Assembly (NCBI GenBank): GCA_965637545.1 | Contig: OZ281501.1 | Coordinates: 16,740,001 to 16,804,000 of the forward strand | DNA: 64,000 nt | Direction: 5' to 3' | Source: Phallusia mammillata | Taxonomy: Eukaryota | Part shown: positions 18,001 through 21,000 of the stretch, in pieces | Position numbering within the stretch: the first letter of the stretch is position 1 | Layout of the letters: each line of letters begins with the position of its first letter | Position numbers: made by a program

Positions 18001-21000
18001 CACCGTTATTATATTGAACGTAACAAGCAATTGTTAGTAATTCTCTAGTAATTTATTCGTTGCAGAATTGTGAATAAAATTTTCTTTTCGATGACATCAT
18101 ATGGTGAAAATGACACCAGTAGCAAGTTTCATAAAAACCAAATGGAATAATCGCCAAAACGTTTTGTACTCACTTCGAAAGATCCATCCGTAACCATGTC
18201 AACGGTTTTTGACAGTATGTACTGGCATGTGCCGTAGAAATCGTACGTTTCACCGCTAAACGTCTCACCGTGACCCAAACCATATAAGGAGCATTCTCTT
18301 CTGGAGCTAGTGCTGCTTGACCTAGGTGGTTTGGAATCACTAAATTCGTCATGCGAAGCTGTAATACAAAACATAAAAAATGTCAAAGTTCTGTTTCATG
18401 GTTAATGCAAATTCATTATACTTACTGTATGAACATCGATATCCAAGATAGCCGGGTGAGCAGGCACAATATTCCAAACCAGCGCATGTGCCATCGTTGT
18501 AACAGAAATCATCATCGCCTGTACAGTTTGCTGTAAAACAAAAGCATTGTAAAATTAATTTAGTTGTAGACAACACGGTTAGTTTTTCGGATGTGGACTC
18601 TACCGTTTAAAACGCTTTAAAAATTGCGATTGTAGTAAATACAACTGTACATATGATTATTCCAAAAAAAAAATGCTAGTTTTTTCTAGTTGCAGGTATT
18701 TTTTATTGTTTATATTCCTTGTCTAAAGTAAAAAATATTTTAAAATACACAGCAAAATTCTAAAATGAATGAGAAATACCAACCTCGTAACTATTTTGTC
18801 AACATTTTAAATAAAACTTACGAGTCAACTTGGTTTCGTAGTAGATCGAAAATCCCTTGTAAGCAATTGCGGAATCTGATACGAACTGCACAGTCGCTTT
18901 ATTTTCTGTCGTTTCCATCTCTACCCCACTGGGAAGTTCATTTCCACATAGTTTGTTCTGCCACATGCGTACACCAGAAACCCGCAGATAATCGTTTCTG
19001 TAAGTTAAAGCACAAAACAGTTACAGAATATCGTCCTAATTATAACAATATGTGTTTATTGTGCCAATCCGCAAAGGACTTGTTATTGTAAAGTACAGAA
19101 AATAATAATACATTATAATGTATACTGTAGACACAATTTGGGAATCATGGACTGTTCAAATTTTTTTTAGTAGATGCCGATTCGCGACGATACCTGGTTC
19201 GTAGCGCGAAACATTTCAACACAAATACCCTCGCGTTCTCATGGCAAGTCCACACAAAAATAGTCGACAAGGCTGTATACTTGTTGATTTAACTTGCTCC
19301 TATTTTACCTGCATTCTGATGATGACTGGAGTTTAAAGTAATCTACATTTAACACGATAGTGTGTCCTACAGGAGCAACGATGGTCCAAGTGCAATTGGC
19401 ATTGCTGGAATATTCAGCAGGGTAGTTGGGTGATGCGATTTGCCCTGTAGGTTCCGTTAATGTTCCCCCGCAGGCTGTAAAAAAAAAGTCGCGTACATGT
19501 TGAGAACCTGGCTCTAGGTAATTCCCCGTTTACACCAATAGATTAGTTGTATATTGTGCGCTTTTGGTTTAAGTTGTTGGTAGCAGTACGCACCGAAAAA
19601 AAAAATCTGCAAGCTTTCTAGACACATTTTTACTACTTGTAAATTTAAGTCGACCGTAAATACGCCACACACTTAAGCTGTGTTAAACCAATTTAGCAAA
19701 AAAATACCAACACTTACGTGTTTCAAATAGGGGTAGCCTACATGTAAAATAGCCACCAATTGTTTTACTTACGCTTTAGCTTATGTTACATTACAAGTTA
19801 TGTTTTAAAAGGTTTTCACAGAATAGATTTAAATAAATTATTAGCACTTACGACAAGGTCCTTCATCGCACGCTTTCGAATCCATTCCATCAAGAGGTGG
19901 ACAGTTCCCTGACAAACATCTTCGTATTCTTTCCTGTGTTCCCATGCCACAGGTTGGGCTGCATGGGGACCATGGACCCCAATCAGCCCACTCTATCGTT
20001 TCTGAAACTGTCAGGTAAACGGAAATTGCGCATAAGCTTGCGTTGCCAGAAGAAATAAAACTACCAAAACATAAATAATAAGCCTTTCATTAAGAAACTA
20101 TTAATTAATGCAGTGGTCTGTTATTACCTTGAAGCACTTGTTGGTTTCATCCACGTTATGTTTTAAAAAGGATTCCGCATTGCCTTTTGCAGAAAAGAGC
20201 AACAAATAAGATAGTTGTACTTACCACAAGGCCCTTCATTGCACACTTCAGCTTCTATTCCATCAAGAGGTGGACAGTTTCCTGTCGAGCATATTCGCAT
20301 CCTTTCCCGTGTTCCCATTCCACAGGTTTGGCTGCAAGGAGACCATGCACCCCATGAAGTCCATTTAACCGGTACGTTGGGAGGCCCATTGTCAAACAGA
20401 TCGGGAAGATTGAAACCAGGAAACTGCGCTTGAGCTTGTCTAGACACAAAGAAAATCACCACAGCCCAACGCAGAACCCACATAACGTTTCGTTTAGCTT
20501 GAACCCGCAGCAATGACAAGAATTTCGCGCGCAACTGACAAACGCCAAAATGCACTGATGCCGTCCACAGGAGTAGCACCAGTTTAAGTACAGAGAGCAG
20601 TTGTCAATCTACGCCCAAACAATAGTTGCTGCAGACAATAGGCGTCCCCCTTTTTTGTGTTGGGGCTTCCCAAACTTTCGTTCAGTTCTCCGAAATGCTT
20701 TGCATCGCTTCATCTGTGTGGGTGAGGTAATATTACAAAGAACGAAACGAGAAAACGCAAAACTTGGGGAATTTTGTCTCCCACTCAAAATGCTCAAAAG
20801 TTACAAAAAGGGCCTATTATATGTATACAGTACAAATCCTTGGGGGAACTAACGACAATTTTCGAAAGATTATCTACTACAAACAGATCCCGGTGTCAAA
20901 AATTGGATTCTTTCTATTTTTTACTAACTTTGTTTGTAATGGGGTTAGTCTACCGGTAAAGCTACCTTTGCAATGAAAGGTTTGGGTATCGTACAATAGG

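What the first reader, a model, noticed from the sequence alone, without database searches (positions are those of the whole stretch)
18174..20483. Unusual N-terminal TSP1-TSP1-CUB-EGF cap on a vWF/mucin D1-D2-D'-D3 scaffold
vWF and gel-forming mucins start D1 right after the signal peptide, otogelins have a short EGF-like segment there, and SCO-spondin carries its TSP1 repeats after the D domains. I know of no family member with two TSP1 repeats plus CUB plus EGF ahead of D1. The modules are bounded by phase-1 introns, as expected for exon shuffling, and the two TSP1 exons are clearly similar in DNA. If this protein polymerises, it would display recognition or adhesion modules along the polymer.
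Basis: partly seen in the sequence, partly recalled or inferred. Interest (0 to 1): 0.65.

Follow-up and report, generated by a model that had tools for sequence, protein, structure and literature searches.

The report
VWF/mucin-like gene with TSP1-CUB-EGF head
A compact, non-human animal gene for a secreted von Willebrand factor/mucin-type protein carries two thrombospondin repeats, a CUB and an EGF module ahead of its D domains, a combination not seen in the relatives I could check, with its role still untested.

Summary
On the minus strand, 20483-18174 holds six short exons with good GT/AG sites. They encode a start codon plus signal peptide plus TSP1, a second TSP1, a CUB split over two exons, an EGF-like module, and a Ser-rich linker fused to the first residues of VWD-1 (Pfam exon by exon). 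D1, D2, D' and D3 follow collinearly, and the gene runs off the window's left edge.

The two TSP1 exons are a ~373-bp tandem duplication of the whole first exon (82% identity over 151 nt), not two separate shuffling events.

None of the 150 best family representatives has a TSP1 or CUB ahead of its first D assembly. Other heads do occur in the wider superfamily: IgGFc_binding, MAM and EGF-like repeats.

Polymer display is plausible but unproven. The D3 cysteine triple is kept and no furin site is visible. However, the CGLC motifs of D1 and D2 are degenerate and the C-terminus is off-window. No orthologue, transcript or organism could be found.

Verdict: a real, single-gene mosaic and a new variant of a known kind, of moderate interest.

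The parts
20225..20483 (-). Exon 1. First in-frame ATG, signal-peptide-like N-terminus, and TSP1 repeat a (WTSWGAWSPCSQTCGMG, RERMR, six Cys). Ends in phase 1 at GTAAGT.
   Evidence: Sequence read. Pfam TSP_1 2.3e-09, residues 43-86.
19852..20007 (-). Exon 2. TSP1 repeat b, phase 1-1. An alternative in-frame acceptor lies at 20001.
   Evidence: Pfam TSP_1 8.8e-10. Nearest solved chains are properdin and thrombospondin-1.
19738..20483 (-). Two copies of a ~373-bp tandem duplication (about 20483-20111 and 20110-19738) that made the second TSP1 exon from the first exon. The signal-peptide part of copy 2 is now intron.
   Evidence: Core of 151 columns at 82% identity, score 167 against a shuffled maximum of 29. 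Downstream intron flank z 8.0. Upstream flank z 4.3, which only equals the shuffled maximum. Tandem Repeats Finder did not report it.
19309..19474 (-). Exon 3. CUB N-terminal half (CGGTL...NCTW...SEC), phase 1 in and phase 2 out.
   Evidence: Pfam CUB 2e-15, profile positions 1-54 of 110. Nearest solved chains are cubilin, PCPE-1, neuropilins and MASPs.
18822..18997 (-). Exon 4. CUB C-terminal half (NDYLRV...KLCG...FVSDSAIAYKGF), phase 2 in and phase 1 out.
   Evidence: Pfam CUB 9.8e-06, profile positions 72-110 of 110. Aligned to cubilin and PCPE-1.
18426..18530 (-). Exon 5. EGF-like module with six Cys, phase 1-1.
   Evidence: Pfam EGF_2 0.0023, below the cut-off. The Cys spacing and GYxGxxC were read.
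18174..18358 (-). Exon 6. Ser-rich linker of 21 residues, then the start of VWD-1 (CSLYGLGHGETF...). Only a 67-bp intron separates it from the EGF exon, and it has no start codon or signal of its own.
   Evidence: Pfam VWD 2.9e-05, profile positions 1-32. Sequence read.
15721..17860 (-). Rest of D1: VWD-1 exons (17860-17730; from 17262, with 'EGLCGEY'), the C8-1 exon 16269-16050, and the TIL-1 exon inside ORF 15721-15975.
   Evidence: C8 5.8e-19, TIL 3.3e-08.
10116..14866 (-). D2 assembly: VWD-2 (with 'MCGLVG'), C8-2, TIL-2, E-2, and a 41-nt exon at 10156-10116 (C-TCSSGVYNC-RSKD).
   Evidence: Pfam. Alignment of CGLV to the VWF CGLC motif. Exon search, sequence.
7243..7648 (-). D' (TIL'/E'), two exons: 7648-7514 and 7369-7243.
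   Evidence: Pfam TIL 5.1e-4. Collinear with relatives.
4722..6896 (-). D3 assembly: VWD-3 (with 'TCGLCG'), C8-3 (with 'DCECFC'), and a TIL-3-like region.
   Evidence: Pfam. C8-3 best matches MUC2 and VWF C8-3.
1..4274 (-). Cys-rich repeat exons after D3 with no Pfam match, including a repeated multi-exon unit (297-1118 resembles 2584-3494). The gene continues beyond the window start.
   Evidence: ORFs. No Pfam family at E<=1 for 4 of the 5 pieces tested; the fifth, 3651-3947, gave only Gp3-like at 0.0088, below its cut-off.

Best explanation
One gene encodes a secreted, cysteine-rich glycoprotein of the von Willebrand factor / gel-forming-mucin family. Its D1-D2-D'-D3 N-terminal scaffold is preceded by about 290 residues of added modules: signal peptide, two thrombospondin type-1 repeats, one CUB, one EGF-like module and a Ser-rich linker.

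Shown:
- The modules, their order, the intron phases, and the collinear D assemblies.
- The origin of the second TSP1 by tandem duplication of exon 1.

Inferred:
- The head was added by phase-1 exon shuffling in the order TSP1-CUB-EGF, then enlarged by duplication.
- No furin consensus is visible between D2 and D' (RSKD where VWF has RSKR), so the head and D1-D2 probably stay on the mature protein, as in mucins.
- The D3 assembly keeps the D3-specific Cys triple, so N-terminal disulfide linking is possible. If it happens, each link point of the polymer would carry pairs of TSR/CUB ligand-binding heads.
- The likeliest job is to tether a secreted matrix or mucus-like net to glycans, sulfated polymers, collagen-like or microbial ligands. 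TSR and CUB are ligand-binding modules in properdin, thrombospondin-1, cubilin, PCPE-1 and the MASPs (function recalled).
For: - Exon-by-exon Pfam hits.
- Consistent phases and consensus splice sites read.
- A 67-bp intron joins the EGF exon to the exon that holds both the linker and the VWD-1 start. That exon has no start codon or signal of its own.
- The ATG at 20483 is the first in its open frame and is followed by a hydrophobic core and AQA.
- D1, D2, D' and D3 are collinear with two mucin-type relatives.
- The closest relatives by summed score are Mucin2_WxxW-bearing mucin-type proteins.
- C8-3 best matches MUC2 (1.8e-20) and VWF C8-3. 'DCECFC' aligns with VWF chain positions 1097, 1099 and 1101.
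- The D2/D' junction exon reads ...NC-RSKD, and the D' exon starts ..NDDSSITC, without RX[KR]R.
- The TSRs have WxxWxxW, CSxTCG and RxRxR.
- The duplication is shown.
Against: - There are no transcript data and no orthologue. Three word-index searches found nothing useful, and the best representatives are only 33-36% identical.
- The CGLC motif is degenerate in D1 ('EGLC', by reading) and in D2 ('CGLV', aligned to the VWF CGLC motif). In VWF these motifs are held to be needed for multimer assembly (recalled), so the canonical polymerisation chemistry may be lost.
- The C-terminus, and any cystine knot, lies outside the window.
- The TIL-3 exon gave no PDB match, so the second interchain cysteine is unchecked.
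- The CUB has Gln where all four cubilin CUBs and both PCPE-1 CUBs have Glu in 'F.LE'. That Glu is a Ca2+ ligand by recollection, so ligand binding of the usual kind may be weakened.
- The EGF is under the Pfam cut-off.
- The 41-nt junction exon is only the best of 37 candidates.
Confidence: 0.55

Rival explanations
1. The protein does not polymerise. It is a monomeric or dimeric matrix or adhesive protein in which the D assemblies serve as structural or cohesive modules, as in zonadhesin, FCGBP, SCO-spondin or marine adhesive proteins. The head is simply one more binding module.
For: - The CGLC motifs of D1 and D2 are each missing one Cys (and reading).
- No PTS-rich frame occurs anywhere on the minus strand except one off-frame stretch.
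- VWD-C8-TIL combined with lectin, EGF or TSP1 modules is common in aquatic adhesives (passages of PMC8621496; table of PMC7037938).
Against: - The full D1-D2-D'-D3 order of the polymer-forming members is kept.
- C8-3 keeps the D3-type Cys triple.
- The closest relatives are mucin-type.
Confidence: 0.25
2. The head plus D1-D2 is a cleaved pro-region, as in VWF. The TSP1/CUB/EGF modules would then act only during biosynthesis, or as a separate secreted fragment, and would not be displayed on the mature polymer.
For: - VWF is the precedent (recalled).
- The junction reads RSKD, which resembles the VWF RSKR.
Against: - P1 is Asp, not Arg, and there is no RX[KR]R in the predicted junction exons.
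- Mucins are not cleaved there (recalled).
- The junction exon prediction itself is unverified.
Confidence: 0.12
3. There are two products. Exons 1-5 make a small secreted TSP1-TSP1-CUB-EGF protein, for example by retention of the 67-bp intron, which stays open for 27 codons and then stops. The D-domain protein comes from another start.
For: The frame of the EGF exon runs on through the intron to a stop at about 18352 (ORF 18352-18606).
Against: - Exon 6 starts in phase 1, and the only in-frame ATG nearby gives MFCITAS..., which is no signal peptide.
- The donor GTAAGT and an acceptor with a pyrimidine tract flank the 67-bp intron.
Confidence: 0.08
4. The gene is a decaying duplicate (pseudogene) in a tandem family, or an assembly chimera.
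For: - A tandem paralogue lies upstream.
- Degenerate CGLC motifs.
- A 2.4-kb intron with transposon-like ORFs between D2 and D'.
Against: - All exons examined are open with usable splice sites.
- There are no N runs.
Confidence: 0.03

Closest known systems
Gel-forming mucins (MUC2, MUC5AC, MUC5B)
   Same: The N-terminal order D1-D2-D'-D3. C8-3 best matches MUC2 C8-3. The closest representatives carry Mucin2_WxxW domains. No furin site is seen at D2/D'.
   Different: A roughly 290-residue TSP1-TSP1-CUB-EGF head lies ahead of D1. No PTS-rich frame and no Mucin2_WxxW domain was found in the part of the gene inside the window. The CGLC motif is degenerate in D1 and D2.
von Willebrand factor
   Same: The D1-D2-D'-D3 order. 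The Cys triple aligns with VWF chain positions 1097, 1099 and 1101. An RSK- motif sits at the D2/D' border.
   Different: RSKD instead of RSKR. D2 has CGLV where VWF has CGLC. No VWA exon was seen in the window. A head precedes D1.
Ci-GFM1 of Ciona (PMC6109156, passages read)
   Same: A tunicate family member described as a mosaic of 30 domains of 13 types on the D1-D2-D'D3 scaffold, with added binding modules (chitin-binding, fibronectin type II).
   Different: The passages name no TSP1 or CUB. Its domain drawing is in a figure and a supplement that I could not see. The organism of this window is unknown.
SCO-spondin-like proteins (e.g. hit P0122)
   Same: They combine three VWD-C8-TIL assemblies with TSP1 repeats.
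   Different: The TSP1 lies after the D domains and follows LDLa repeats. Here the TSP1 repeats precede D1, and no LDLa was seen.
FCGBP and zonadhesin-like proteins
   Same: They have an N-terminal non-D head ahead of VWD-C8-TIL arrays: IgGFc_binding in 4 of 4 hits scanned, MAM in 2.
   Different: Different head families, and repeated D arrays rather than D1-D2-D'-D3.
ADAMTS13 distal TSP1-CUB tail
   Same: A TSP1-TSP1-CUB order of module types. That tail binds VWF (recalled).
   Different: There is no specific likeness. ADAMTS13 appears only as weak TSP1 matches (E 1.5e-3), and none of the 43 CUB matches is ADAMTS13.

Membership tests
VWF / gel-forming mucin family (polymer-forming D1-D2-D'-D3 proteins) | Three VWD-C8-TIL assemblies plus a D' in the order D1, D2, D', D3 | tested here: met
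   Pfam exon by exon. Collinear tblastn with P0036 and P0007.
VWF / gel-forming mucin family (polymer-forming D1-D2-D'-D3 proteins) | D3-specific extra cysteine in C8-3, the position of the VWF interchain Cys1099 (its role is recalled) | tested here: met
   'DCECFC' aligns with VWF 'DCACFC' at chain positions 1097-1101 and with MUC2 'DCECFC'.
VWF / gel-forming mucin family (polymer-forming D1-D2-D'-D3 proteins) | Second interchain cysteine, in TIL-3 | tested here: inconclusive
   The TIL-3-like ORF 5111-5299 gave no PDB match at E<=0.1.
VWF / gel-forming mucin family (polymer-forming D1-D2-D'-D3 proteins) | CGLC motif in VWD-1 and VWD-2 | tested here: not met
   D2 'MCGLVG' aligns with VWF 'TCGLCG'. 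D1 reads 'EGLCGEY', and no alignment was obtained for it. D3 keeps 'TCGLCG'.
VWF / gel-forming mucin family (polymer-forming D1-D2-D'-D3 proteins) | C-terminal cystine knot for tail-to-tail dimers | not testable with these tools
   The gene runs off the window at position 1.
Gel-forming mucins in the strict sense | Long Pro/Thr/Ser-rich (PTS) domain and CysD (Mucin2_WxxW) domains | tested here: not met
   No 40-residue stretch with >=50% P+T+S in any minus-strand frame of this gene. No Mucin2_WxxW hit in the post-D3 exons. Only the part inside the window was examined.
VWF in the strict sense | Furin site RX[KR]R between D2 and D' | tested here: not met
   The predicted junction reads RSKD, then ..NDDSSITC. 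The exon prediction is unverified.
Thrombospondin type-1 repeat | WxxWxxW, CSxTCG, an RxRxR layer and six cysteines | tested here: met
   Both exons were read. Pfam TSP_1 is above the cut-off for both.
CUB domain | Four cysteines and a full-length match to the profile | tested here: met
   The two exons cover profile positions 1-54 and 72-110 of 110. Four Cys were read. The two halves were never joined for a search.
Ca2+-binding CUB subtype (definition recalled) | Acidic triad: Glu in 'F.LE', Asp in 'DY', Asp in 'F.SD' | tested here: inconclusive
   Gln replaces the Glu that all six aligned cubilin and PCPE-1 CUBs have. Both Asp are kept. Which residues bind Ca2+ is recalled, not tested.
SCO-spondin | LDLa repeats and TSP1 repeats after the D domains | tested here: not met
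   No further TSP1-like exon occurs anywhere in the window. No LDLa hit in the exons tested. The 3' end of the gene is unseen.

The most novel reading that the evidence does not exclude
The protein is a polymeric pattern-recognition net. A mucin-type disulfide-linked polymer carries, at every N-terminal junction, properdin-like TSRs and a cubilin/MASP-like CUB. These would capture microbes, food particles or collagen-like and sulfated ligands directly. This would merge the mucus scaffold and the recognition arm of humoral immunity in one chain, and it would be a scaffold type that vertebrates do not have.
Probability: 0.12. Interest if true: 0.6.

Novelty: new variant of a known kind. Interest (0 to 1): 0.33.

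Why it matters
In vertebrate VWF and mucins, D1 follows the signal peptide directly, and D1-D2 drive the packing that lines up D3 for disulfide linking. A natural member with about 290 residues of folded modules ahead of D1 would show that this assembly tolerates N-terminal cargo. It would also give a route for evolution, or for protein engineers, to decorate a mucin-type polymer with binding heads. Finally, it is a clean textbook case of mosaic-protein growth, with phase-1 module insertion followed by duplication of the first exon. Without expression data, orthologues or a known organism, its weight stays moderate.

Tried and rejected
- Word-index protein searches with exon 1, the C8-1 exon and the CUB N-half ('longer', 96/129/152 to 2000 aa). 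They gave 7 candidates with none significant, 2 candidates with none significant, and 1 candidate, an unrelated multi-CUB frog protein. Proteins over 2000 aa could not be reached this way.
- Rfam on the whole window gave 0 matches.
- The protein atlas, queried with the paralogue's 652-aa exon, gave only VWC-like leads under 0.8 and no taxon.
- The paralogue's N-terminus was sought at 60.5-63 kb. Ten of 10 ORFs had no VWD, TSP1 or CUB hit and there was no tblastn signal. Whether the neighbour has a head is unknown.
- 'RHKR' in ORF 10157-10324 looked like a furin site. I rejected it because that frame cannot be spliced to the phase-2 donor at about 10461: the only acceptor gives TGA.
- An ADAMTS13 relationship of the head was rejected.
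- The CBM_14 hit at 4722-4883 (E 0.0036, below the cut-off) is not trusted.
- Five literature searches found no paper describing TSP1 and CUB ahead of D1.
- PMC2042186 is not held.
- No structure or complex prediction was run, because it would have needed the joined model.
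Full report
SCOPE AND LIMITS

The window has no N. I do not take it for human. GC is 34-44%, introns in the region are 67-380 bp, and the best family representatives are only 33-36% identical.

The joined (spliced) coding sequence was never built, translated, searched or folded. As a result the CUB was only ever tested as two halves, and no structure model of the head exists.

Two sets of drawings that could show a similar head were therefore not seen. One is the domain drawings of the 17 Ciona multi-VWD proteins, in the supplements and website of PMC4948705. 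The other is Supplementary Fig. 5e of PMC6109156.

THE OBSERVATION

On the minus strand I read these exons:
- e1, 20483-20225
- e2, 20007 (or 20001)-19852
- e3, 19474-19309
- e4, 18997-18822
- e5, 18530-18426
- e6, 18358-18174
- e7, 17860-17730

All have GT donors, five of them GTAAGT-like, and AG acceptors behind pyrimidine tracts. The phases chain correctly: e1 ends in phase 1, e2 is 1-1, e3 is 1-2, e4 is 2-1, e5 is 1-1, and e6 is 1-0. By arithmetic, e1-e5 sum to 862 nt, so the first cysteine of VWD-1 is at about residue 310.

Pfam on each exon alone gave:
- TSP_1 at 2.3e-09 and 8.8e-10.
- CUB at 2e-15 (profile 1-54 of 110) and 9.8e-06 (profile 72-110).
- EGF_2 at only 0.0023, below the cut-off. 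The six cysteines with spacing 6-5-5-1-8 and 'GYLGYRC' read as an EGF.
- VWD at 2.9e-05 (profile 1-32).
- C8 at 5.8e-19.

The ATG at 20483 is the first in its open frame. It is followed by MWVLRWAVVIFFVSRQAQA, which reads as a signal peptide. I had no predictor to confirm this.

No plus-strand ORF of note overlaps the region. No other TSP1-, CUB- or EGF-like exon of this kind occurs in the 64 kb.

ONE GENE

The EGF exon and the exon holding both the linker and the VWD-1 start are 67 bp apart. That second exon begins in phase 1 and has no signal peptide of its own.

Downstream, the assemblies follow in order:
- D1: C8 at 16269-16050, TIL in ORF 15721-15975.
- D2: VWD at 14627-14866, C8 in 12090-12539, TIL at 10807-10962.
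- D': 7648-7243.
- D3: VWD at 6537-6896, C8 at 5299-5475.

These rest, and they are collinear with residues 38-1115 of relative P0036 and 65-1145 of relative P0007.

After D3 come Cys-rich repeat exons without a Pfam match, running to position 1. The gene is therefore cut by the window edge, and its C-terminus is unknown. No PTS-rich frame exists in it.

ORIGIN OF THE HEAD

The two TSP1 exons align at 82% identity over 151 nt, offset by 373 bp. The score is 167 against a shuffled maximum of 29.

The likeness continues into the intron after each exon (z 8.0). It also continues, weakly, upstream: the signal-peptide coding part of e1 resembles the 3' end of intron 1. That includes an aligned ATG and a 17-of-20 match, with z 4.3, which only equals the best shuffle.

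So exon 2 is a copy of the whole first exon whose leader has decayed into intron. The ancestral head was signal-TSP1-CUB-EGF. Tandem Repeats Finder did not report this duplication.

HOW UNUSUAL IT IS

A full HMMER scan of 1.84 billion representatives with the C8-1 exon gave 726 proteins at E<=0.001. I could see the best 150 of them. The ranking favours proteins with many C8 domains, and 576 hits were not seen.

Results on the 150:
- By local phmmer with each head exon (domain E<0.01), 0 of 150 have a TSP1 or CUB before the first D assembly. Two of 150 have a TSP1 far C-terminal.
- By motif patterns, 0 of 150 have one before the first C8. Three of 150 match anywhere.
- Whole-protein Pfam on 14 of the 150 found CUB in 0 and TSP_1 in 1, which is C-terminal and SCO-spondin-like.
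- Of the 133 that start with M, 89 begin their first D signal within 100 residues, and 31 have more than 200 residues ahead of it.

Heads do exist in other branches of the superfamily:
- IgGFc_binding in 4 of 4 FCGBP-like hits.
- MAM in 2 zonadhesin-like hits.
- EGF-like repeats in P0090 and Sushi/EGF-like patterns in P0081. These are by eye only, since Pfam at E<=0.001 did not name them.
- Several other extensions look low-complexity or mispredicted.

From the literature:
- PMC4948705, passages only: Ciona and Oikopleura each have 17 multi-VWD proteins. The main text has no occurrence of CUB, TSP1 or thrombospondin. [quoted passage not shown]
- PMC6109156, passages: Ci-GFM1 is a mosaic of 30 domains of 13 types on the same scaffold.
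- PMC8621496 and PMC7037938, passages and a table: aquatic adhesives often join VWD-C8-TIL with lectin, EGF or TSP1 modules.

Five full-text searches found no description of TSP1 and CUB ahead of D1.

WOULD IT POLYMERISE AND KEEP THE HEAD?

For:
- C8-3 best matches MUC2 C8-3 (1.8e-20) and VWF C8-3. It keeps the D3-type triple 'DCECFC', aligned with VWF chain positions 1097, 1099 and 1101. That position 1099 is the interchain cysteine is recalled.
- D3 keeps 'CGLCG'.
- The best candidate for the small exon between D2 and D' is 10156-10116. It was 1 of 37 candidates, the only one with a strong acceptor tract, a GTAAGT donor and the expected C-x-C-x6-C pattern. With it, the border reads RSKD, then NDDSSITC, with no RX[KR]R. 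The head and D1-D2 would therefore stay attached, as in mucins.

Against:
- D2 has 'CGLV' aligned to the VWF 'CGLC'.
- D1 reads 'EGLC'. No alignment was obtained for it.
- The TIL-3 region gave no PDB match.
- The C-terminus is unseen.

WHAT THE HEAD MIGHT BIND

- The TSRs have WxxWxxW, CSxTCG and RxRxR. They are nearest to properdin and thrombospondin-1 among solved chains.
- The CUB is nearest to cubilin, PCPE-1, the neuropilins and the MASPs.
- The CUB has Gln where six aligned cubilin and PCPE-1 CUBs have the Glu of 'F.LE', while both conserved Asp are kept. That these residues bind Ca2+ is recalled.
- ADAMTS13 is not specifically similar.

CONTEXT

- A tandem paralogue fills about 25.1-60.8 kb on the same strand. 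It has C8/TIL of D1, C8 of D2, VWD/C8 of D3, and a GDPH-type VWD at 42558-42809.
- The paralogue's own 5' end could not be found in the window, so whether it has a head is unknown.
- The organism could not be determined.

VERDICT

This is a real single-gene mosaic. A mucin/VWF-type D1-D2-D'-D3 scaffold carries a TSP1-TSP1-CUB-EGF head, built by module insertion plus first-exon duplication. It is a new variant of a known kind. Function and polymer display are inferred, not shown.

Noticed in passing
window 25074-60802, minus strand: A tandem paralogue of the same family lies directly upstream. Pfam confirms C8 (60103-60324) and TIL (59762-59977) of D1, C8 of D2 (56253-56648), VWD/C8 of D3 (50504-50833, 49960-50187), and a VWD starting 'GDPHYVTF' (42558-42809). 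Its last ORF (25074-25388) looks like a cystine knot by eye but has no Pfam hit at E<=0.1.
   Followed up: partly
window 27666-29621, 32645-34096, 35405-36337, minus strand: Very long open exons (652, 484 and 311 aa) of Cys-rich repeats in the paralogue. They have no Pfam family and only VWC-like atlas leads below 0.8.
   Followed up: partly
window 297-1118 versus 2584-3494, minus strand: The 3' part of the gene repeats a multi-exon unit almost word for word. ORFs 837-1118 and 3210-3494 match, as do 297-566 and 2584-2811. This is a recent internal duplication about 2.4 kb apart.
   Followed up: no
window 10116-10156 and 7648, minus strand: The predicted D2/D' border reads RSKD where VWF has the furin site RSKR (the VWF site is recalled). 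It looks like a disabled cleavage site.
   Followed up: partly
window 12992-13237 and 17061-17288, minus strand: The CGLC motif is CGLV in D2 (aligned to VWF) and EGLC in D1 (by reading). Only D3 keeps CGLC.
   Followed up: partly
window 7700-10100: The 2.4-kb intron between D2 and D' holds many 60-120-aa ORFs on both strands without cysteine patterns, for example 9478-9849 on the plus strand and 9507-9809 on the minus strand. This is possibly a decayed mobile element.
   Followed up: no
window 61481-62002, minus strand: A 173-aa open frame with a Lys-rich run (KKIKKKIKK) lies upstream of the paralogue's D1. It has only a sub-threshold PUB hit.
   Followed up: partly
window 4722-4883, minus strand: A weak chitin-binding CBM_14 hit (E 0.0036, below the cut-off) falls in the TIL-3/E-3 region. 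It is of note only because Ci-GFM1 is reported to carry a chitin-binding domain (PMC6109156).
   Followed up: no
window 2911-3035: A 30-bp tandem repeat with 4.2 copies lies in an intron of the 3' repeat region.
   Followed up: no
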